Position numbers and translations under genes: made by a program | Source of the DNA: a virus | Lineage: Duplodnaviria; Heunggongvirae; Uroviricota; Caudoviricetes | Strand: one strand, 5' to 3' | IMG/VR virus record: IMGVR_UViG_3300018839_000001 | DNA length: 14,631 nucleotides | The notes under the pieces: generated by a model | What the model was told of the DNA's origin: nothing | Databases searched by the model: none | What the model saw: only the letters and a program-made list of their open reading frames with translations | In this document: positions 3,564 to 10,871 of the stretch, piece after piece | How the letters are laid out: each line of letters opens with the position of its first letter | Numbering within the stretch: the first letter of the stretch is position 1

Positions 3564-4289
3564 TCACACCTCTAAATAAACGTATTGTTCAACATATTCT
3601 CTATCTTGAGAAAAGATAGGTGTTTCAAGGTCTACATCCCATACACTTCTATTGGCACCATTCTTTTCAAAATAAATCTTTTTAATACAAGCTCCGCGTT
3701 TTTGCCATGTAGGAATGTCATTCCAATTAATTCCCTTCTCTAAGAATAGCTTATCTTGCATCTGACCGCTATTCAAACCTTGAAGTTGATTATGTGGAAA
3801 GTTCGCTTGTGCAACCATTGAAATACTATTCTTTGTTGCATCCTGTTGTCTCCACAAAAAATAATTACACACTTCATCTTTAGGAAGCACCCACGCTCTA
3901 GCATCAAACAAGGCAGGTTGTTTTTCTGGATATTCCTCACGCATAATCTCATTAAATTTTGCTGTAGCTAATGAAGCTGAAACTGAAACTATTTTTTGAA
4001 GATTGTTATCGAACCATGATTCTGTTGCAAGCTTATCATAATTAGTAAGTAGTAAGCTGATTTCGTCTGACTGTGTGTAGGCTAATTTACAGCCCATAAT
4101 GTTCTGAGCAAGATATTTGCACGTTTCCCACATCGCATACGTCAAATACCGATCAAATGGTTTCTCCATTCCTCTTGTGTATGTATGAAACGATTTCCCA
4201 TCTATTCTAATGATAATTGGCATTCGTTTTGGTAACTTCATTCGATAAGTATTTTCATACCCTTTCATTCTGTCTCCGAACTTATCCAT
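3564..4289 (-). CDS. thg1: tRNA(His) guanylyltransferase Thg1-like protein (3'-5' polymerase, TLP)
   Basis: DRMKGYE, IIRIDGKSFH, YTQSDEISLL, FDARA, NYFLWRQQDATKNSI and WQKRG are Thg1 family motifs, with both metal-binding Asp (RIDG, SDE) intact. Start at 4289 by SD spacing (4295 is the alternative). Confidence 0.95.
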   Translation of the reverse strand: MDKFGDRMKGYENTYRMKLPKRMPIIIRIDGKSFHTYTRGMEKPFDRYLTYAMWETCKYLAQNIMGCKLAYTQSDEISLLLTNYDKLATESWFDNNLQKIVSVSASLATAKFNEIMREEYPEKQPALFDARAWVLPKDEVCNYFLWRQQDATKNSISMVAQANFPHNQLQGLNSGQMQDKLFLEKGINWNDIPTWQKRGACIKKIYFEKNGANRSVWDVDLETPIFSQDREYVEQYVYLEV

Positions 4290-4307
4290 TAACATCTCTC
4301 CAATCTT

Positions 4308-4400
4308 TTAGCTCTTCATATAATTAATTAATGTGTATAGTCCTAACAAAACCGTTTGTATTAACCAAATAACAAGTATAAACTGTATAATTTTTATCAC
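4308..4400 (-). CDS. Small single-pass membrane peptide (27-30 aa), start uncertain
   Basis: Frame reads VIKIIQFILVIWLIQTVLLGLYTLINYMKS*. SD GGAGTG lies 6 nt before an ATT codon (4391). Fills the 4411/4289 gap. Confidence 0.45.
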   Translation of the reverse strand: MIKIIQFILVIWLIQTVLLGLYTLINYMKS

Positions 4401-4410
4401 TCCAGTTCAT

Positions 4411-4611
4411 TCACAATGCATTTGATAAAAAGTAGGCAAGCTCTTTAATCTTTTCATTTTTCTTTCTTTCATTGTCGATAAGATTAGTTAAAGCGTATAA
4501 ATCTTTTTCAAGTTCAGAACCCTCTTTTGCATGTTCACGAATAATTCTCATAACTTCCTGATTTAATTTAACAAAGCTTACAGATTCAATTTTATTAATA
4601 TCTATGCTCAT
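4411..4611 (-). CDS. Hypothetical protein (66 aa, coiled-coil-like)
   Basis: SD AAGGAG; directly downstream of the promoter at 4644-4672. Confidence 0.75.
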   Translation of the reverse strand: MSIDINKIESVSFVKLNQEVMRIIREHAKEGSELEKDLYALTNLIDNERKKNEKIKELAYFLSNAL

Positions 4612-4643
4612 TTTTTCATTCTCCTTTTCATTGCTATGTATTT

Positions 4644-4672
4644 ATTATAGCATTATTAATTAGTTTTGTAAA
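4644..4672 (-). promoter_or_regulatory. sigmaA-type promoter P1
   Basis: TTTACA-N17-TATAAT with extended TG. Confidence 0.8.
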
Positions 4673-4687
4673 AGGAATTTCAAGTTT

Positions 4688-4885
4688 TTATTTATTAAAA
4701 TTCCTTGTATCTCGACTTTTAACTTCTATCTTTCTTCCTTTTGAGCATTTCATTCTAATATGAAGTATTTCTAATTTGGCAAGAGGTTGGCTTTCCAACC
4801 AAGGTATATCTTCTTTGCTGAAATAAGCTCTAAACTTTAAAAGTTCAAAAATAAGATATCTTCTTCTATCTTTGATTTCGCTCAA
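4688..4885 (-). CDS. Fur-regulated basic protein FbpA-like small protein
   Basis: RRRYLIFELLKF...LESQPLAKLEILH fits the FbpA pattern as I recall it (R..LI.EL.......LYEL.L.ELE...). SD GGAGTG-N6-TTG at 4885; basic C-terminus; 65 aa. Confidence 0.6.
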   Translation of the reverse strand: MSEIKDRRRYLIFELLKFRAYFSKEDIPWLESQPLAKLEILHIRMKCSKGRKIEVKSRDTRNFNK

Positions 4886-4960
4886 ATTATTCACTCCAGC
4901 TCTATGCAACCATTATTCTATTACTCTTATCGGTTACAGCTTTCATTTCTTTATATTTAA

Positions 4961-4989
4961 ATTATAACATTAACATAGTCCTTTGTCAA
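4961..4989 (-). promoter_or_regulatory. sigmaA-type promoter P2
   Basis: Perfect TTGACA-N17-TATAAT with TG. Motif AATCTG abuts the -35. Confidence 0.9.
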
Positions 4990-5006
4990 CAGATTCAAAA
5001 ATTAAT

Positions 5007-5029
5007 AGAGTCAGCTATAGGCCGACTCT
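5007..5029 (-). terminator. Intrinsic terminator (possibly bidirectional)
   Basis: Minus-strand AGAGTCGGC-CTATA-GCTGACTCT stem followed by ATTAATTTTT, just after the 5040 stop. A T-run also follows on the plus strand. Confidence 0.75.
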
Positions 5030-5039
5030 TTTTGATGAG

Positions 5040-5405
5040 TTACTTTTCCCAATTAATCTCTAATATTTCAAGCCCATTGTTAAGGTATTGATCTAAAGGA
5101 ATTTTACCTGTCATCTGATGCGCCTCAATCTCTTTGCTATCCCATCCTTGCATATCAAAACCTTCCCTTACTTCTTTATAAATTTCACTGGATGATAAAT
5201 TTTCATCATACTCTCTATCTCTACCAAGATACATAACTGTTTGCAAGACTTTTACATCTTCAAAACTAAGATTATCTACATATTTTTTTAAAGCATCATT
5301 TTCTTTTGTATACTCTTGATCACTTTCGACAAGCTTCCTTCTTTTCTCCGCGAGTTTTATGATATCTCGAAAAATTTCAATCCTGCTTTCCACATCTTTA
5401 ACCAT
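5040..5405 (-). CDS. DUF3775-like protein
   Basis: VLQTVMYLGRD...KIPLDQYLNNGLEIL resembles the DUF3775 LMWLGR...L.DYL..GL pattern. SD AGGAGTGG; start 5405; 121 aa. Confidence 0.65.
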   Translation of the reverse strand: MVKDVESRIEIFRDIIKLAEKRRKLVESDQEYTKENDALKKYVDNLSFEDVKVLQTVMYLGRDREYDENLSSSEIYKEVREGFDMQGWDSKEIEAHQMTGKIPLDQYLNNGLEILEINWEK

Positions 5406-5454
5406 TTTACCACTCCTAAACAATAACATAATTAAATACCATCACTACCTTTAG

Positions 5455-5463
5455 ATTATAACA
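5455..5463 (-). promoter_or_regulatory. Extended -10 promoter for the DUF3775-like gene
   Basis: TGTTATAAT about 50 nt upstream of the start; poor -35. Confidence 0.55.
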
Positions 5464-5523
5464 AATTTACCATAATGTTCACATATAAATGATGAATTTC
5501 TTTCCAAGACAATTAAATACTGG

Positions 5524-5552
5524 TTGATCCATAATATATTCATTGTTACAAT
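5524..5552 (+). promoter_or_regulatory. Plus-strand sigmaA-type promoter (sRNA promoter)
   Basis: TTGATC-N17-TACAAT with extended TG; predicted start site about 5557-5559. Confidence 0.65.
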
Positions 5553-5556
5553 AGTC

Positions 5557-5625
5557 ATAGAGGGATTATCCCTCTGTTCAAAATCAATCGTCTTCGTCAT
5601 TATTTGATTTTGGACTTTCTTTTTT
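5557..5625 (+). ncRNA. Candidate ~68-nt small RNA (two hairpins plus U-tail)
   Basis: Stem 1 AGAGGGA/TCCCTCT (5559-5575). Stem 2 GTTCAAAATCAA/TTGATTTTGGAC (5576-5615, one G-U, 16-nt loop). Then TTTCTTTTTT. Begins exactly where the upstream promoter predicts; no SD-ATG inside. Confidence 0.55.
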
Positions 5626-5634
5626 CAGCCCAAA

Positions 5635-5663
5635 GAGGGAGAAGTTATTCGGCCTTCTCCCTC
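5635..5663 (-). terminator. GC-rich hairpin after the XRE gene (probable terminator or processing stem)
   Basis: Perfect 10-bp stem GAGGGAGAAG/CTTCTCCCTC with a 9-nt loop; only a short U-run follows. Confidence 0.5.
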
Positions 5664-5675
5664 GAAAATATCCTC

Positions 5676-6038
5676 CTAAAAATTCTTTTTTGACATTTTT
5701 TTAATTTCCTTCTCTTTAAGAAAATCTATAAAATTAATAATTTGCTGTTTTGATTCATCTGATAAGTGTAAAGCTCTTCTTAGGGCACTCTCTAAATTTT
5801 CATCGTTAAACTCTTCATTTAGTATCCATTTTTCATTAGAACGACCTAATAAATAATCTACTGTAACGTTGAAGAAGTCAGCGATTTTAATTAATGTCCT
5901 ACAATCTGGCTCATTATCACCTGTCTCGTATCTGGCATATGTCGAACGATTTAAACCTAGATTTTTACAGAGTTCCTTCTGAGATAGCTTAGGTTTATGC
6001 TGATCTCTTAAGATTTTCAACCTTTCATTTAAAATCAT
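5676..6038 (-). CDS. XRE-family helix-turn-helix transcriptional regulator
   Basis: RLKILR...LSQKELCKNLGLNRSTYARYETGDNEPD..TLIKIADFFNVTVDYLLGRS is a canonical Xre/ImmR-type HTH. SD AAGGAG. Confidence 0.93.
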   Translation of the reverse strand: MILNERLKILRDQHKPKLSQKELCKNLGLNRSTYARYETGDNEPDCRTLIKIADFFNVTVDYLLGRSNEKWILNEEFNDENLESALRRALHLSDESKQQIINFIDFLKEKEIKKMSKKNF

Positions 6039-6121
6039 ATTAAAGCTCCTTGATATTTACTTTGCATAAATACTCTTCTATTATATTTGATAACGGGAAG
6101 TTTTTAAATAAATAATAAGAA

Positions 6122-6143
6122 AACGCAGGATTATTCCTGCGTT
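6122..6143 (-). terminator. Intrinsic terminator of the DUF262 gene
   Basis: AACGCAGGA-4nt-TCCTGCGTT followed by a T-rich tract on the minus strand; overlaps the stop codon. Confidence 0.8.
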
Positions 6144-7416
6144 AAGCTTTGGTTGTTGCATGTTTTGGTTCTGCGTCAATATCTTTCAAACCACCGCTTT
6201 TATCTTTCTTCTCTTTCTTTGGCTCTTCTTCTTTTTTCTCCGTCTTAGTTTTTACCTCTTTATCTTTAGACTTCTGATCTTTTTTAACGTTTTCCTCTTT
6301 CTTTTGTTCTTTTTTCGGCTCTTCTTTTGGTTTTTCTTCTAATTTCTCTTGCAAGGCAACAAACTCATCAAAATGCGCCATCATTGCATTCAAGCGACCA
6401 AGTATTTTATTCCGTTTTACACTACCCGCTCCTTGATACTTCTCTTTATAGTCGTCTTCGACTTTAACAAGAGCCTTTTCTTTTGACCTCTTACCAAGTG
6501 CATAATTGAAATCTTCCACCCATTTGCCAAAGATTTCAGAAGGTAATTTTTTATCCTTAGCTTTTTTGGCCACCATGAAAACTGTTGGCAATTGAAGCTT
6601 TTTGAACAGTGGATTTGAGATATTTGCAGAATAAGCATAATTAAGCACGTCTTTAAATTCTTTTACAATTGAAGTTAAATCAGAATTTTTCATTTCTGTT
6701 GCGAAATTCAAAATTTTATCCGCGACAAAGCTCTCAATTTTATCTTTATCTTTCATCAGCATGATTGTCTGTAGAATAACCGCTTCATCATCGCTTCTTC
6801 TACGTTGCAACGGAGTAAACTGTGCAACCTCTTCCATAAATGGATGCTTCAATAATTCTTCGATCATAGTTGCATTTTTTGTACCCATTTTCGCACGTGA
6901 TTTTTGTTGTTTTGTCAATGGCGTACCATTATTCCATCTAAAGAATAGCTCTTCAATCTCTTCGTCAGTAGCATCTTCAATTCTTTGGACTGGAATATTA
7001 GTGGTCATGATTTCAGCTTGTACATCTTGAGGCAATTCATCGAAATATTTACCCGCTATTTTAATCTTTTCAATCTTGCCTTTCATTCCCTGTATAAAAA
7101 GGTCTGGAGTTTCTACATGTAAAGGATATGCCTTGTCAGGGTATACTCCTGTTTCGGGATCTCTTACACCTCTAACAAAATTTATAAGGTTAGTGCTACG
7201 CTGTTTACCGTCTAATACATATTCATATTTATCTGCCTTAAAGACTAAGATAGGTGGCATCGCCCATCCAGATGCCGCTGTATGAATAAATAGCGATTTT
7301 TGTAGCTCATCCCATTGACCACTTGGTCTTTGAATTGGATAGTTGAAATTCAACTCTCCACTTTCTGCCATCCTGAATAAATCTTTAATACTCCATGAGG
7401 GGCTAGTTGTTTTCAT
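6142..7416 (-). CDS. DUF262 (ParB/GmrS-like) domain protein with Lys/Glu-rich C-terminal tail
   Basis: YPIQR..QW..LQKSLFIHT, PPI, VLDGKQRS, FFRWNNGTPL are DUF262 motifs (QR, DGxQR, FxxxN). No HNH/DUF1524 motif seen. Start 7416 by SD spacing. Confidence 0.85.
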   Translation of the reverse strand: MKTTSPSWSIKDLFRMAESGELNFNYPIQRPSGQWDELQKSLFIHTAASGWAMPPILVFKADKYEYVLDGKQRSTNLINFVRGVRDPETGVYPDKAYPLHVETPDLFIQGMKGKIEKIKIAGKYFDELPQDVQAEIMTTNIPVQRIEDATDEEIEELFFRWNNGTPLTKQQKSRAKMGTKNATMIEELLKHPFMEEVAQFTPLQRRRSDDEAVILQTIMLMKDKDKIESFVADKILNFATEMKNSDLTSIVKEFKDVLNYAYSANISNPLFKKLQLPTVFMVAKKAKDKKLPSEIFGKWVEDFNYALGKRSKEKALVKVEDDYKEKYQGAGSVKRNKILGRLNAMMAHFDEFVALQEKLEEKPKEEPKKEQKKEENVKKDQKSKDKEVKTKTEKKEEEPKKEKKDKSGGLKDIDAEPKHATTKA

Positions 7417-7475
7417 TCTCATCAATCCTTTTCAATGTTATTTTCGTTTTATGTCCAATTAATAATGTTAAAAAT

Positions 7476-7504
7476 ATTATAACATTATTAATGGATTTTG
7501 TCAA
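7476..7504 (-). promoter_or_regulatory. sigmaA-type promoter P3
   Basis: Perfect TTGACA-N17-TATAAT with TG; the -10 lies within a 35-bp dyad. Confidence 0.9.
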
Positions 7505-7524
7505 AGGATTTTAAAAACAAAAGT

Positions 7525-8160
7525 TTATTCTTCTGGTTTTGCTATCGTAAACATTAAGCCTAATTTTTCACTGGAGTAATCCAGAGTATATTTTAAACCG
7601 TGGTATTCTTTTGATTTGACTGTCTTATTTTTTATAGTGTTATCAGCATCTAAATCAGTAAATAACAACTTCCCTCTATCGCCTTTAGACATATCAGGAT
7701 TAAACACATTCATTAAAACCCCGATAACTCTATAATAATCTTCAAGGTCTTCTGATATATCTCCTCTTTTAATAAGAATCAAATCGTTGATCTCTTTTGA
7801 ATCTTCATCGAAATTTCCCATTAAGGAAAAATTATTATTAAAATTATGATAAAAAATATTTGTTGTTTCTCCTTCTTTTAAAACGGGGTGAATATTCAAC
7901 AGATCATTTCCTAATAAATTTACCGCTTCTTCATTGTAATGCTGTTGAAATTCTTCGGGTGTAAATTCCATTTGATAATGTTCATCTTCTGTTTCGTCAG
8001 TCTCATTAGATACTCTTTCAACAGATGTGTCATTGCTTTTGCTTTCTGTAGATACTTCCTCTTTGTTTGATTTCATTGCATTGCCACTTATCCACGCCAC
8101 TATAAAAATTCCTATTCCAATCGTTAAAGCGACAATGGCTATTTTCTTAAAAAGTCTCAT
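7525..8160 (-). CDS. N-terminally membrane-anchored/secreted protein (211 aa)
   Basis: SD AAGGAGG-N5-ATG at 8160; TM segment IAIVALTIGIGIFIVAWI; acidic Ser-rich linker. Confidence 0.85.
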   Translation of the reverse strand: MRLFKKIAIVALTIGIGIFIVAWISGNAMKSNKEEVSTESKSNDTSVERVSNETDETEDEHYQMEFTPEEFQQHYNEEAVNLLGNDLLNIHPVLKEGETTNIFYHNFNNNFSLMGNFDEDSKEINDLILIKRGDISEDLEDYYRVIGVLMNVFNPDMSKGDRGKLLFTDLDADNTIKNKTVKSKEYHGLKYTLDYSSEKLGLMFTIAKPEE

Positions 8161-8194
8161 GGATTTCCTCCTTATGCGTTGTGAGACTATTATA

Positions 8195-9163
8195 CTATGT
8201 TTTTCCAAATGTTTTAACAATTTTTCTGGATAAATTAAAAAAATTATCTGGTGACATAATAATCTCATCTTCTCCTTGTTTTATTGTAACCTTCCCATCG
8301 ATCATATAGGCACATACTAGACCACAATCATCCTCTTCCTCTTCCCAAATAAATTCTTTTTCACACTCACTATTAGCTATCCATTTGTTCTCACACGGTA
8401 CATTAGCAAAACCTTGGTAACTATCGTTAATTGAAGAGAGAATCATTAAGATTAAATTAATTGCATCCTTCATATTATATATCGACAAAAACTCAAATTC
8501 TGTATGCTCATTCTGGTATCCTGCGCTCAAATTTACTGTATTGACTCCATTCTTAGCGAAAATGCACGCATCAGATGACCTTCCTTTTACACATGAATAA
8601 TTTAAACCAATCTCTTTTGAAATTCTTTCAACAAAATCCCCAACTTCATTACAGCAGAAAGGAAATTCTGATCCTACAACAATATCTCTACTTCCTTGAC
8701 GATCTACAACAATCGCCAAATCAACATTCTTATAAAAAGACTTGTTTATCTTTTCTGCTCCGACAAGACCTACTTCCTCTTCTCTGCTGAATGCAACTTT
8801 AATCGTACCGTTAAAATGCTCTGGAATTTTCTCAATAACTGAAAGGATAATTGCTATTCCTGCTCTATCATCCGCACCTAGAATTGTACGAGAACCGTCA
8901 GGCAACTCTGCGGTAATAATCCCACCCTTATTAACTACCCTCTTCTCTCTTTTTATCCCGTATACGGTATCCATATGAGCTGAGAGCATTACCGTGGCTC
9001 CTTTACCCGTTCCAATTTTTTTTGATGCTAAAAGATTTCCATAAGAATCTTCGAAAACGTCTGTCATTAATTTCTTCAAAATAGGCTTTAAATAGGATCG
9101 TACTGCGGATTCTGCACCTGATGGAGCGTAAATGTTAAGTAATTCAATTAGTCGTTTTTGCAA
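8195..9163 (-). CDS. M20/M28/M42-clan dinuclear metallopeptidase
   Basis: APSG.E, YGNL, LSAHMDTV, LGADDRAG, REEEVG..GA, VVDR, SD and NEHT supply the His/Asp/Glu ligand set. Start TTG 9163 after AGAAGGGA, since the longer ORF crosses a terminator. Confidence 0.9.
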   Translation of the reverse strand: MQKRLIELLNIYAPSGAESAVRSYLKPILKKLMTDVFEDSYGNLLASKKIGTGKGATVMLSAHMDTVYGIKREKRVVNKGGIITAELPDGSRTILGADDRAGIAIILSVIEKIPEHFNGTIKVAFSREEEVGLVGAEKINKSFYKNVDLAIVVDRQGSRDIVVGSEFPFCCNEVGDFVERISKEIGLNYSCVKGRSSDACIFAKNGVNTVNLSAGYQNEHTEFEFLSIYNMKDAINLILMILSSINDSYQGFANVPCENKWIANSECEKEFIWEEEEDDCGLVCAYMIDGKVTIKQGEDEIIMSPDNFFNLSRKIVKTFGKT

Positions 9164-9186
9164 CCAGCCTACATCCCTTCTATATG

Positions 9187-9215
9187 AAAATAAGACAGCA
9201 TAAGCTGTCCTATTT
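9187..9215 (-). terminator. Intrinsic terminator
   Basis: Minus-strand AAATAGGACAGC-TTAT-GCTGTCTTATTTT spanning the 9210 stop. Confidence 0.75.
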
Positions 9216-9476
9216 CGTTTTTGTCTCCCAATATTCATTGAGTTTTTCTCTAAATGATTTTAATGAAGCAATGTTTAATTCTTTTACAAATTTTTCATCA
9301 TCATAAATTGCAAGCTCCCCTTGCCGACTCAAAGCGGCAATAACGTTTCCTGTATTATAACTTTCTAGTTCAGGTAAAAGAAATTCTACATTGTAAAATT
9401 GAAGTGTATCCCCTTCAAGAATATCATACTCTTCCCATTTTAATATTTCGACACCCATAATTGTTTCTAATTCCAT
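9210..9476 (-). CDS. Hypothetical protein (88 aa, acidic)
   Basis: SD AAGGAGGG; complete ORF. Confidence 0.8.
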   Translation of the reverse strand: MELETIMGVEILKWEEYDILEGDTLQFYNVEFLLPELESYNTGNVIAALSRQGELAIYDDEKFVKELNIASLKSFREKLNEYWETKTK

Positions 9477-9490
9477 TATATACCCTCCTT

Positions 9491-9910
9491 TTAAAATCCA
9501 TTCTCTTGCAATACTTGCTCATATGCAGTATCAATTTTTGCCTTCCCATTCTCTAATGCTTTTGCTTCTGCGCTTTCTAGAGCTGTTCTAATTTCTTTTA
9601 GTTTTTCGCCAATAACTTTCTTTTCCATATCTTTTGTTTTTGTCTTTTTGTACTCATTGAGATCATACTTTAGATTTTGATTATTTTCTTCTACTAAATC
9701 TGATGCCTCATCTTTTAAAGCACTTTTTAATTTATCTAAGTCTGATTGAAATGCCTTTTTATAATCTACGCTTGGAGCTTGAATACTTGCTACAGATTTG
9801 CTCTTTAATTGTTCAAACCAATTCGTTGCGGCATATGTTACAGTTCCTCCTACCAAAGCTCCAGCTAATCCGACAGCTAATACAACACTCTTCATCTTTT
9901 TGTTTTTCAT
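9491..9910 (-). CDS. Secreted helical protein with Sec signal peptide
   Basis: MKNKKMKSVVLAVGLAGALVGGTVTYA-AT: basic n-region, hydrophobic core, T-Y-A cleavage site. Own promoter P4. Confidence 0.85.
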   Translation of the reverse strand: MKNKKMKSVVLAVGLAGALVGGTVTYAATNWFEQLKSKSVASIQAPSVDYKKAFQSDLDKLKSALKDEASDLVEENNQNLKYDLNEYKKTKTKDMEKKVIGEKLKEIRTALESAEAKALENGKAKIDTAYEQVLQENGF

Positions 9911-9953
9911 TAATAATTCCCCCTATATAGATTCTCTTCTTTTCTATATATTT

Positions 9954-9982
9954 ATTATATCATTATTAATTAGTTTGGTCAA
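9954..9982 (-). promoter_or_regulatory. sigmaA-type promoter P4
   Basis: TTGACC-N17-TATAAT with TG; nearly identical to P1 from the spacer onward. Confidence 0.85.
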
Positions 9983-10056
9983 CTTAAATTCGCTGTCAAA
10001 ATTATAGATATTTGACCGTAAATCATCTTTCCAATTTTGCCAACGAATTTAAGTTG
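9980..10056. repeat. 77-bp imperfect inverted repeat (24-bp arms, 22/24 matching)
   Basis: CAACTTAAATTCGCTGTCAAAATT (9980-10003) versus AATTTTGCCAACGAATTTAAGTTG (10033-10056), with a 29-nt spacer. Confidence 0.9.
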
Positions 10057-10075
10057 AAAATATAATGGCTAATGA

Positions 10076-10639
10076 TTATTGAATTGCACCATTATTCCTT
10101 AAATTACTCATAAGTTGTGGATTATCATGTTCAACATCATAAAAAAATACTTCATCAACATGCTTTTCAATATCCCAATCTTTTATACTCCATTCATTTG
10201 TTGTGATCAATATTATTTTTCTCGAATTACAATTCTTTATGTCATTTAAAAAATCATTATAATCTTTTTGATTTTTTAGGACTAGTTGAACAGGAAAGTA
10301 TAGAGTAAATGTATTTTCATTACCCTTCAAATCAACCTTAGTATTGCTTCCATAACTATTTATTCTAATCGTCATATCTCCTATTTTGTAACTTATTGTT
10401 GATTTGACTGCATCAGGTAAAAATTTTTTCTTAAAGTCGAAGGCTTGATGTATACGGTACGATATATTGGACATAGAATTTGTTCTTATGATTCCTCTAT
10501 CAAACATTGCATTTAAACAAGAAAGAACTACTCTTGCTTTGGCATTATGATCATACCCTCTCACCAAGAGTATTCTTTTCGTTTCATCTTCTAAAAACTT
10601 TAATATACTATCAATAGCTCTTTCTCTATCTTTCATCAT
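10076..10639 (-). CDS. Hypothetical protein, possibly a degenerate P-loop NTPase fold
   Basis: SD AAGGAG-N4-ATG at 10639. Helix/RILLVRG/loop/helix start, with later KIILITTNE and VDEVFFYD strands. Confidence 0.8.
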   Translation of the reverse strand: MMKDRERAIDSILKFLEDETKRILLVRGYDHNAKARVVLSCLNAMFDRGIIRTNSMSNISYRIHQAFDFKKKFLPDAVKSTISYKIGDMTIRINSYGSNTKVDLKGNENTFTLYFPVQLVLKNQKDYNDFLNDIKNCNSRKIILITTNEWSIKDWDIEKHVDEVFFYDVEHDNPQLMSNLRNNGAIQ

Positions 10640-10664
10640 GAATCTCCTTAATAAAATAAATATT

Positions 10665-10871
10665 TTAAACACATTTGCAAATTGCTTTGAAAAAGTCTAA
10701 ATTATTTCCATGCTGTCCATCATCAAAATCATAAACAATGTTCCCGTTTCGCTTTATAGCATACCTTTGTTTATATTTAACACGATCAACAAAAGAATAT
10801 AGTTCTAACTCTCCCGATGAGTCCGTTAATTCCCAAGCATTTGTACATTCTTTTATATATTTCTCGTCCAT
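10665..10871 (-). CDS. Hypothetical protein (68 aa)
   Basis: TAATG stop-start overlap with the upstream gene. Confidence 0.7.
   Translation of the reverse strand: MDEKYIKECTNAWELTDSSGELELYSFVDRVKYKQRYAIKRNGNIVYDFDDGQHGNNLDFFKAICKCV

What the first reader, a model, noticed from the sequence alone, without database searches (positions are those of the whole stretch)
4688..5625. Candidate phage-encoded sRNA plus FbpA-like chaperone: a possible FsrA/FbpA-type riboregulatory module
Seen: the best-supported plus-strand transcription unit in an otherwise minus-strand region. Promoter TTGATC-N17-TG-TACAAT (5524-5552) is followed exactly at the predicted start by ATAGAGGGATTATCCCTCTGTTC, then a 12-bp stem with a 16-nt loop (TCGTCTTCGTCATTAT) and a U-tail. 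Known: B. subtilis FsrA is an sRNA that acts with the small basic proteins FbpA/B/C. From memory, unverified, FsrA begins with a similar ATAGAG...CTCTGTTC hairpin. An FbpA-like gene with its own perfect promoter lies about 670 bp away. Inference: a phage sRNA with an FsrA-like scaffold but a different seed loop. The loop is complementary to ATAATGACGAAGACGA, an ATG-ACG-AAG-ACG start region, so it could repress a specific host or phage mRNA.
Basis: partly seen in the sequence, partly recalled or inferred. Interest (0 to 1): 0.75.

Follow-up and report, generated by a model that had tools for sequence, protein, structure and literature searches.

The report
Unannotated small RNA gene in Bacillus phages
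The plus-strand promoter, two hairpins and U-tail are real. They look like a roughly 60-nt non-coding RNA gene from a previously undescribed family found in at least 39 Bacillus phage and prophage sequences. It is not related to FsrA, and I found no link to an FbpA-like chaperone.

Summary
An extended -10 promoter (TTGATC-N17-TGt-TACAAT, 5524-5552) sits 7 nt before a 7-bp hairpin (5559-5575). A 12-bp, 16-nt-loop hairpin (5576-5615) and a T-run follow. The plus strand folds at -21.7 kcal/mol (z -5.3).

- The Rfam FsrA model gives no hit, and there is no Fur box.
- The 65-aa protein (4688-4885) gives no Pfam FbpA hit. One 53%-identical homologue reaches 19.9 bits against a 22-bit cut-off.
- RNA and protein do not co-occur outside this lineage.
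- The "ATG-ACG-AAG-ACG target" is only the opposite strand. It starts a 49-codon ORF that a 1-nt indel cuts to 14 codons in the closest relative.

New result: the unit belongs to an RNA family absent from Rfam.
- Covariance models match reciprocally between the window copy and a unit in phages FADO, PK-3, PJN02 and 2S-4, where it lies antisense inside the tRNA cluster.
- There are 33 further copies in ~40-kb IMG/VR contigs.
- All copies have a TGn extended -10 about 7 nt before a 5' hairpin, the same basal stem with a conserved U.G wobble, and a U-tail. Nearly all point against the flanking genes.
- The 5' hairpin covaries.

The function is unknown. My best guess is an antisense or base-pairing RNA like lambda OOP. 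No transcript data exist.

The parts
5524..5552 (+). Sigma-A-type extended -10 promoter: TTGATC, 17-nt spacer, TGt, TACAAT
   Evidence: In the 93%-identical relative G001, all 4 substitutions fall outside the -35, TG and -10 positions. The family shares an extended -10 about 7 nt before the 5' hairpin.
5559..5575 (+). 5'-terminal hairpin hp1: 7 bp, 3-nt loop, -9.2 kcal/mol. It starts at the predicted transcription start.
   Evidence: In G001 the loop is replaced (ATTAT to TACG, with a 1-nt indel) while the stem is kept. Across the family the 5' hairpin covaries, with 7 of 8 pairs showing double changes.
5576..5615 (+). Hairpin hp2: 12 bp including one U.G pair, 16-nt loop TCGTCTTCGTCATTAT, -10.5 kcal/mol. 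Together with the T-run it forms the terminator.
   Evidence: The basal 11 pairs are shared with the FADO-type and prophage-type units. One pair shows a compensatory U-A to C-G change, and the U.G wobble is conserved in all copies.
5616..5626 (+). T-run CTTTCTTTTTT. The predicted 3' end of the RNA is near 5617-5622, giving about 59-64 nt.
   Evidence: It is identical in G001. A U-tail follows hp2 in all family members.
5635..5668 (-). GC-rich hairpin hp3 (10 bp, -18.5 kcal/mol) after the XRE stop codon. It is terminator-like for the minus strand, with a weak U-tract (UUUGGGCU). It is not part of the RNA.
   Evidence: Its stem sequence equals that of the 5' hairpin of the prophage-type units; this is unexplained.
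5455..5463 (-). Extended -10 (TGTTATAAT) of the divergent minus-strand promoter for the DUF3775-like gene
   Evidence: Read. The stretch 5446-5490 is invariant in G001.
5451..5600 (-). 49-codon ORF opposite the RNA; not a gene
   Evidence: There is no family hit. In G001 the 1-nt indel in the hp1 loop shifts the frame and leaves 14 codons, and no ORF of 25 aa or more is present.
4688..4885 (-). 65-aa three-helix protein of a small Bacillus phage/plasmid family (phrog_9455). I found no link to the RNA.
5676..6038 (-). XRE-family HTH regulator, convergent with the RNA
   Evidence: Pfam HTH_3, E 8e-14.
5040..5405 (-). DUF3775-like gene, divergent from the RNA

Best explanation
Positions 5524-5626 (+) form a self-contained gene for a small non-coding RNA of about 60 nt.

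**Anatomy**
- A sigma-A extended -10 promoter starts transcription at about 5559.
- The first 17 nt form a 5'-terminal hairpin. In Bacillus, such hairpins protect RNAs from 5'-end-dependent decay; this step is inferred from general knowledge.
- A second, longer hairpin plus a U-tract ends the RNA.

**Family**
- The RNA is a short-loop member of a phage RNA family that is not in Rfam.
- Other members are a ~90-nt version in the tRNA clusters of phages FADO, PK-3, PJN02 and 2S-4, and a ~88-nt version in many ~40-kb Bacillus-type prophage contigs.
- In nearly every copy the cassette points against the surrounding genes. It sits tail-to-tail with the upstream gene and back-to-back with the promoter of the downstream gene.

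**Mechanism (inferred, not shown)**
- It most likely acts by base pairing.
- My leading guess is an OOP-like cis-antisense role. The RNA would pair with transcripts that read through from the upstream regulator gene (here XRE, whose terminator has a weak U-tract) and mark them for cleavage.
- A trans target in the host is the main alternative.

It is not an FsrA relative and is not partnered with an FbpA-type protein.
For: **Anatomy and fold**
- Sequence features. Folds.
- Strand asymmetry: -21.7 against -17.1 kcal/mol in the window, and -27.1 against -15.4 kcal/mol in FADO.

**Closest relative (G001)**
- The promoter's key positions are kept.
- The hp1 stem is kept while its loop is replaced by an indel that breaks the opposite ORF.

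**Homology to other units**
- Model R1, built from the window copy, hits FADO, PK-3, PJN02 and 2S-4 at 21-24 bits.
- Model R2, built from those four, returns window 5550-5625 (29.3 bits, E 1.7e-4) and the G001 copy (24.1 bits). These were the only matches with E below 5 in 122 kb.
- A joint alignment shows shared -35, TG and -10 positions, spacer positions and hp2 arms.
- The hp2 helix has one compensatory pair and a U.G wobble in all copies.

**Prophage-type copies (33)**
- 33 of 33 have a TGn extended -10.
- In 32 of 33 it ends 7 nt before the 5' hairpin.
- The flanking ORFs lie on the opposite strand in 24 of 26 cases.
- They are 85-97% identical to the FADO type over hp2.

**Pair statistics and coding checks**
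- 97.3% of cells are paired, and 8 pairs show double changes. The observed values exceed all 500 shuffles, and slid controls give 40-56% paired.
- There is no conserved ORF on either strand.
- There is no Rfam family.
Against: - No RNA-seq, Northern or 5'/3'-end data exist for any member.
- The window-type copy is known from only two sequences that are 93% identical. Its 75-nt identical run is only the 7th longest in a 7.3-kb alignment.
- The link between the window type and the other types rests on modest scores (21-29 bits).
- hp2 is AU-rich with a 16-nt loop, and the consensus terminator scan did not call it.
- The invariance of the hp2 stem among IMG/VR copies is partly forced by the search pattern I used.
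- Alignment A11 was fitted to the model, which favours pairing.
- No target stands out. The best phage start-region duplex is -18.7 kcal/mol, against -19.6 +/- 2.1 for the best hit of shuffled loops.
- Host genomes could not be searched.
- The cis-antisense mechanism needs read-through past hp3, which is not shown.
Confidence: 0.62

Rival explanations
1. FsrA/FbpA-type module. The RNA would be an FsrA-like scaffold that works with the FbpA-like 65-aa protein encoded 670 bp away.
For: - The 65-aa protein is small and basic at its C-terminus.
- One homologue (P0003, 53% identical) hits Pfam Fur_reg_FbpA at 19.9 bits, E 6e-4.
- Both genes have their own promoters.
Against: - FsrA model RF02273 gives no hit at the locus at E<=10.
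- No Fur box lies near the promoter.
- No C-rich unpaired region is present.
- The window protein and 5 other family members give no PF13076 hit, and six-frame PF13076 finds nothing in G001.
- The four FADO-type RNA-bearing phages lack the protein family. Protein-bearing PM1 and the B. velezensis plasmid lack the RNA.
- A separate gene with its own promoter and terminator lies between the two.
- RNA binding has not been shown for any Fbp protein (PMC8464778).
Confidence: 0.03
2. No discrete RNA is made. The hairpins would be DNA- or RNA-level punctuation between transcription units, such as terminators or processing sites for the gene strand or a block to stray antisense transcription. The promoter match would have no function.
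For: - A single promoter-like site of this quality is expected by chance on the plus strand.
- The region is a cluster of four hairpins, including a minus-strand-specific one (5608-5633) and hp3.
- hp2 is atypical for a terminator.
Against: - An extended -10 at a fixed 7-nt distance from the 5' hairpin occurs in 33 of 33 prophage-type copies and in all FADO-type and window-type copies, even though the sequence around it differs.
- The U-tract and the conserved U.G pair exist only on the strand that carries the promoter.
- On the gene strand none of the hairpins is followed by a U-run.
Confidence: 0.2
3. hp1 is a DNA operator. The AGAGGGA-TTA-TCCCTCT palindrome would be bound by the neighbouring XRE regulator to control the divergent promoters.
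For: - A perfect 7-bp inverted repeat lies next to an XRE gene and between two back-to-back promoters.
- The pattern is unique in the window.
Against: - In G001 the half-site spacing changes by 1 bp and the centre is replaced. The predicted recognition-helix segment of XRE is unchanged; this is my reading of the two translations.
- No similar palindrome lies at the XRE gene's own promoter.
- Homologous units occur in a tRNA cluster and next to a sigma-like gene, with different 5' hairpin sequences and no XRE.
Confidence: 0.05
4. Type I toxin-antitoxin system. The plus-strand RNA would be the antitoxin for a small toxic peptide encoded opposite it.
For: - Prophage type I systems are common in B. 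subtilis (general knowledge; PMC8464778).
- A 49-codon ORF with a hydrophobic stretch starts inside the hp2 loop complement.
- In the prophage type, a small membrane-like ORF lies next to the unit.
Against: - The ORF is cut to 14 codons in G001.
- It has no ribosome-binding site and no family hit.
- The FADO-type copies sit between tRNA genes with no such ORF.
Confidence: 0.04

Closest known systems
Phage lambda OOP RNA, and similar short phage antisense RNAs such as P22 sar
   Same: - It is a short RNA (lambda OOP is 77 nt) made from its own constitutive promoter with its own terminator.
- It is oriented against the surrounding operon.
- It is placed just downstream of, and convergent with, a regulator gene.

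This comparison rests on my own knowledge.
   Different: - There is no sequence or structural homology.
- OOP overlaps the 3' end of the cII coding region, whereas this RNA ends about 55 nt short of the XRE stop codon.
- Any overlap therefore depends on read-through, which is unproven.
- The host clade is different.
B. subtilis FsrA (Rfam RF02273) with FbpA/B/C
   Same: It is a small RNA in a Bacillus setting with a 5' hairpin and a terminator hairpin. A small basic protein is encoded nearby.
   Different: - There is no covariance-model match, no Fur box and no C-rich seed.
- It is about 60 nt, against 84 nt for FsrA.
- The protein fails the FbpA profile and does not co-occur with the RNA.
SPbeta/skin prophage antitoxin RNAs (SR4, SR6, RatA)
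   Same: It is a prophage- or phage-borne small RNA, convergent with a neighbouring gene, in the Bacillus subtilis group.
   Different: - There is no conserved toxin ORF opposite or overlapping it.
- No Rfam family matches.
- It is much shorter.
Intrinsic (Rho-independent) terminators
   Same: hp2 plus the U-tract has the form of a terminator.
   Different: - It has a 16-29-nt loop or an internal-loop structure, and an AU-rich stem whose sequence is conserved across unrelated phages.
- It is always preceded, within about 40-50 nt, by its own promoter and a 5' hairpin.

Membership tests
FsrA sRNA (Rfam RF02273) | Match to the family covariance model (gathering score 80 bits) | tested here: not met
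   There is no hit at the locus at E<=10 in window 4600-5750, and none at gathering score in the whole window. In G001 the best hits are 13 bits, elsewhere in the genome.
FsrA sRNA (Rfam RF02273) | Fur-regulated promoter (Fur box) | tested here: not met
   The 7-1-7 Fur box, allowing up to 3 mismatches, gives 4 hits against 4.6 expected. None is near 5500-5560.
FsrA sRNA (Rfam RF02273) | C-rich single-stranded regions used for pairing (PMC8464778) | tested here: not met
   The only C-run (CCCUCU) is paired in hp1. The loop is UCGUCUUCGUCAUUAU.
FbpA (Pfam PF13076 Fur_reg_FbpA) | Profile match above the 22-bit cut-off | tested here: not met
   The window protein gives no hit at E<=10 in Pfam or NCBIfam. 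One of 7 family members reaches 19.9 bits. A six-frame search of G001 finds nothing.
FbpA (Pfam PF13076 Fur_reg_FbpA) | Acts with the sRNA (RNA chaperone) | not testable with these tools
   RNA binding is unproven even for the B. subtilis Fbp proteins (PMC8464778). Co-occurrence with the RNA fails.
New phage hairpin-RNA family (FADO-type / prophage-type units, models R1 and R2) | Covariance-model match in both directions | tested here: met
   R2 finds window 5550-5625 at 29.3 bits, E 1.7e-4, as the top hit in 122 kb. R1 finds the FADO, PK-3, PJN02 and 2S-4 units at 21-24 bits. The scores are modest.
New phage hairpin-RNA family (FADO-type / prophage-type units, models R1 and R2) | TGn extended -10 ending about 7 nt before a 5'-terminal hairpin | tested here: met
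   In the window, TGtTACAAT ends at 5552 and the hairpin starts at 5559. The FADO type has TGaTATGAT. In the prophage type 33 of 33 copies have it, 32 of them at 7 nt.
New phage hairpin-RNA family (FADO-type / prophage-type units, models R1 and R2) | Terminator hairpin with basal stem G-C, C-G (U-A in the window type), U.G, C-G, AAAAUCA/UGAUUUU, then a U-tail | tested here: met
   The U.G wobble is present in 24 of 24 distinct rows.
New phage hairpin-RNA family (FADO-type / prophage-type units, models R1 and R2) | Orientation opposite to the flanking genes | tested here: met
   The window copy is a plus-strand unit among minus-strand genes. The FADO-type copies are antisense to the tRNAs. In the prophage type this holds in 24 of 26 cases.
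New phage hairpin-RNA family (FADO-type / prophage-type units, models R1 and R2) | Expressed as a discrete RNA | not testable with these tools
   No transcript data are available.
Type I toxin-antitoxin | Conserved small toxin ORF overlapped by the RNA | tested here: not met
   ORF 5451-5600 (-) is frameshifted in G001.
Cis-antisense RNA of the lambda OOP kind | Overlap with a transcript of the opposite strand | tested here: inconclusive
   The RNA lies about 55 nt beyond the XRE stop codon. The XRE terminator hp3 has a weak U-tract (UUUGGGCU), so read-through is plausible but unproven.

The most novel reading that the evidence does not exclude
The ~90-125-nt promoter-RNA cassette is a portable gene exchanged among otherwise unrelated Bacillus phages: ~165-kb FADO-like phages, ~40-kb temperate phages, and this phage. 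It would encode a conserved regulatory RNA with a shared partner in the host or phage, whether a protein or an RNA. Examples would be a host-takeover or counter-defence RNA, or a general device that cuts read-through transcripts at operon boundaries.
Probability: 0.2. Interest if true: 0.7.

Novelty: new member of a known kind. Interest (0 to 1): 0.45.

Why it matters
Few small RNAs of Gram-positive phages are known, and none is described for the FADO/PJN02 group.

This family has a clear, testable anatomy and at least 39 copies in three structural versions. It sits at operon boundaries next to regulator genes (XRE, a sigma-like factor) or inside a tRNA cluster. If it is expressed, it gives a handle on how these phages separate or time their transcription units, or on a host target they share.

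There is also an annotation point. One member is currently annotated as a protein-coding gene (fado_143 in FADO), and that call looks wrong.

The FsrA/FbpA analogy, which drove the original high score, should be dropped.

Tried and rejected
**FsrA and Rfam**
- Rfam at gathering and at E<=10 gave no family for the window type or the prophage type.
- The FsrA model on G001 gave nothing at the locus.
- A Fur box scan found nothing nearby.

**FbpA**
- Pfam, NCBIfam and PHROGs on the 65-aa protein gave only phrog_9455, of unknown function.
- An exhaustive HMMER search found 3 real homologues plus 2 repeat-protein artefacts.
- A profile search found 6 small proteins, none named FbpA.
- tblastn against phages and plasmids returned only hypothetical proteins.
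- The ESM Atlas gave no usable hit.
- The AlphaFold2 model is a three-helix unit. Foldseek against the PDB found nothing below E 5, and a PDB sequence search also found nothing.

**More window-type copies**
- Exact and loop-free patterns in the viral, genome and metagenome collections returned only G001 plus chance hits.
- blastn against GenBank phages found nothing.
- Relatives of the XRE and DUF262 proteins in IMG/VR carry no such RNA.

**Targets**
- Loop complementarity in the window and in G001 was at chance level.
- A duplex scan of 230 start regions was no better than shuffled loops.
- A 71% direct repeat between hp2 and the 5' end of the 65-aa gene (D8) is at the level of many chance repeats. 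That start region ranked 13th.
- No host genome could be reached.

**Hits judged to be chance**
- R1 hits inside a 486-aa gene of G001.
- R1 hits at the fado_48/49 junction.

**Alignment problem**
- MAFFT misplaced the hp1 indel, so R1 was built from the window sequence alone.
Full report
**Setting**

The window is a stretch of a large Bacillus phage. All credible genes lie on the minus strand. In order they are:
- a DUF262/GmrSD_N protein (6142-7425);
- an XRE-family regulator (5676-6038);
- a DUF3775-like protein (5040-5405);
- a 65-aa protein (4688-4885);
- a 66-aa protein (4411-4611);
- a Thg1-like enzyme (3564-4295).

Thg1 is 88% identical to that of Bacillus phage FADO. Megablast links the window to FADO, PK-3, PJN02 and 2S-4. 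No whole genome is held for the window. The only close relative is IMG/VR contig UViG_2728369130_000006, called G001 here. It is 107 kb and 93.8% identical over window 3573-10850.

**The observation**

- Promoter: TTGATC (5524-5529), a 17-nt spacer, TG (5544-5545) and TACAAT (5547-5552).
- Seven nucleotides later comes a perfect 7-bp hairpin with a 3-nt loop (5559-5575, -9.2 kcal/mol).
- Directly after it is a 12-bp hairpin with one G.U pair and a 16-nt loop (5576-5615, -10.5 kcal/mol), then CTTTCTTTTTT.
- The plus strand folds at -21.7 kcal/mol with z -5.3. The minus strand folds at -17.1 with z -3.6.
- Further on lies hp3 (5635-5668), a GC-rich hairpin after the XRE stop codon that reads as a minus-strand terminator with a weak U-tract.
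- A minus-strand extended -10 (TGTTATAAT, 5463-5455) serves the DUF3775-like gene. The two promoters therefore stand back to back.

A promoter match of this quality is not rare. Shuffles give 1.5e-4 sites per nt per strand, about two per strand in this window, and two are seen on the plus strand. What is unlikely by chance is its position right before the hairpins.

**Comparison with the close relative**

- The promoter's four substitutions all avoid the -35, TG and -10 positions.
- The five differences inside the RNA are one clustered replacement of the hp1 loop (ATTAT to TACG, one base shorter) that leaves a 6-bp stem.
- hp2 and the T-run are identical.
- The indel shifts the frame of the 49-codon ORF on the opposite strand (5600 to 5451) and leaves 14 codons, so that ORF is not a gene.
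- With two sequences the conservation is weak evidence. The 75-nt identical run is the 7th longest in 7.3 kb.

**The FsrA/FbpA reading**

- Rfam finds nothing in the window at gathering thresholds. At E<=10 it finds nothing for FsrA in 4600-5750.
- The FsrA model finds only 10-13-bit chance hits elsewhere in G001, while the same search does detect FsrA above cut-off in a control genome.
- No Fur box lies near the promoter.
- FsrA pairs through C-rich single strands (PMC8464778). Here the only C-run is inside the hp1 stem.
- The 65-aa protein has no Pfam or NCBIfam match even at E<=10. Its only hit is to PHROG 9455, of unknown function.
- An exhaustive search of 1.8 billion representatives finds three true homologues.
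- One of them, P0003 (53% identical; from Bacillus, and 98% identical to a gene on a B. velezensis plasmid), scores 19.9 bits on Fur_reg_FbpA, below the 22-bit cut-off. The other six family members score nothing.
- PF13076 finds nothing in six frames of G001.
- The predicted fold is a three-helix unit with no PDB match.

A very remote kinship to FbpA cannot be excluded, but the membership test fails. RNA binding has not been shown for any Fbp protein in any case.

**A family of such units**

A covariance model built from the window copy alone (R1) gave 21-24-bit hits in FADO, PK-3, PJN02 and 2S-4. These lie inside the phage tRNA cluster, antisense to the tRNAs, and have the same anatomy:
- TTGAAT or TTGCAT, a 17-nt spacer, then TGaTATGAT;
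- a purine-rich 5' hairpin starting 7-9 nt later;
- a short linker;
- a long hairpin whose basal stem is nearly that of window hp2;
- a U-tail.

The four copies are about 90% identical to one another, and there is one copy per genome. The antisense strand folds at -27.1 kcal/mol, against -15.4 for the tRNA-sense strand.

The reverse test holds. A model built from these four (R2) returns window 5550-5625 (+) at 29.3 bits (E 1.7e-4) and the G001 copy at 24.1 bits. These were the only matches with E below 5 in 122 kb.

In a joint alignment the -35 TTG, several spacer positions, TG, -10, both hp2 arms and the tail are shared. The hp2 basal helix has 11 pairs. Ten are invariant, one changes on both sides (U-A to C-G), and a U.G wobble that exists only on this strand is kept in all copies.

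G001's own tRNA spacer lacks the ~125-nt unit that PK-3 and FADO carry there. The unit therefore behaves as a cassette found at different places in related phages.

**A third version**

A pattern for the shared stem found 33 more copies in IMG/VR, mostly in ~40-kb contigs from isolate genomes.
- All 33 have TGnTATA(C/A)T. In 32 of them it ends 7 nt before a GGGAGAAG...CTTCTCCC hairpin.
- The largest flanking ORFs are on the opposite strand in 24 of 26 cases.
- Their hp2 is 85-97% identical to the FADO type (blastn E down to 5e-19). R2 scores them at 60-74 bits.
- In one example the unit lies convergent with a sigma-70 region-4 regulator gene and back to back with a small membrane-like ORF.

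On the model-fitted alignment of 24 distinct sequences, 97.3% of pair cells are standard pairs. Eight pairs show changes on both sides, seven of them in the 5' hairpin. The observed values exceed all 500 shuffles, and slid controls give 40-56% paired.

Two cautions apply. The alignment leans towards the model. The invariance of the hp2 stem among IMG/VR copies is forced by my search pattern.

Rfam has no family for this version either. No paper in the library contains these sequence strings.

**No link to the 65-aa protein**

The four FADO-type phages lack the protein family in a six-frame profile search. Phage PM1 and the B. velezensis plasmid carry the protein family but have no RNA match. 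The prophage-type contigs were not checked for the protein. In the window a complete gene with its own promoter and terminator lies between the two.

**What it most likely is and does**

- Shown: a conserved cassette of promoter, 5' hairpin, long hairpin and U-tail. The structure is strand-specific, no strand codes for a protein, and the cassette is set against the local direction of transcription.
- Inferred: it is transcribed as a discrete RNA of about 60 nt (window type) or about 90 nt. The 5' hairpin stabilises it, and it acts by pairing.
- The recurring position is tail-to-tail with an upstream gene (twice a regulator) and back-to-back with the next promoter. That recalls lambda OOP RNA.
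- I therefore favour a cis-antisense action on read-through transcripts, with a trans target as the alternative.
- Neither could be tested. Start regions of the phage give no duplex better than shuffled loops, and no host genome was reachable.

**Verdict**

The FsrA/FbpA interpretation is not supported. The feature is a new, unannotated family within a known kind (phage small RNAs), without expression data.

This blocked access to three more close relatives.

Noticed in passing
L039:964-1119 (FADO OM236516.1 83363-83518, + strand): The annotated CDS fado_143 (51 aa) starts inside a tRNA-like T-arm and runs across the antisense RNA unit. It is very likely a false gene call. ARAGORN does not call the tRNA-like stretch just before it.
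   Followed up: partly
window 5635-5668: The stem of hp3 (GAGGGAGAAG / CTTCTCCCTC) has the same sequence as the 5' hairpin of the 33 prophage-type units. Here, however, it lies downstream of the RNA's terminator. It could be a remnant of a second cassette or a recombination scar.
   Followed up: no
window 5608-5633 (minus strand): An 8-bp hairpin with a G.U pair forms only on the minus strand. It shares bases with the 3' arm of hp2, so the two structures exclude each other on a read-through transcript.
   Followed up: partly
window 5406-9300 compared with L001/L002: Upstream of the DUF3775-like gene, FADO and PK-3 carry nicotinamide phosphoribosyltransferase and ribose-phosphate pyrophosphokinase. 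These look like the genes of the NAD+-rebuilding pathway discussed in a preprint that mentions FADO (10.1101/2024.02.11.579819); I saw only its abstract. This phage instead has XRE, a stand-alone DUF262 protein, an unknown 247-aa protein and an M42/M28-type peptidase.
   Followed up: partly
L034/L041/L042, 5' end of the FADO-type unit: PK-3, PJN02 and 2S-4 have an AUG followed by a 19-codon frame at the very start of the RNA. FADO has AUA there, so the frame is not conserved.
   Followed up: partly
L014:9570-9647 (G001): ARAGORN reports a tRNA with an undetermined two-base anticodon. It sits where FADO has tRNA-Cys.
   Followed up: no
P0005, P0006: Two long repeat proteins appeared as weak hits of the 65-aa protein. 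They are low-complexity artefacts, not relatives.
   Followed up: yes
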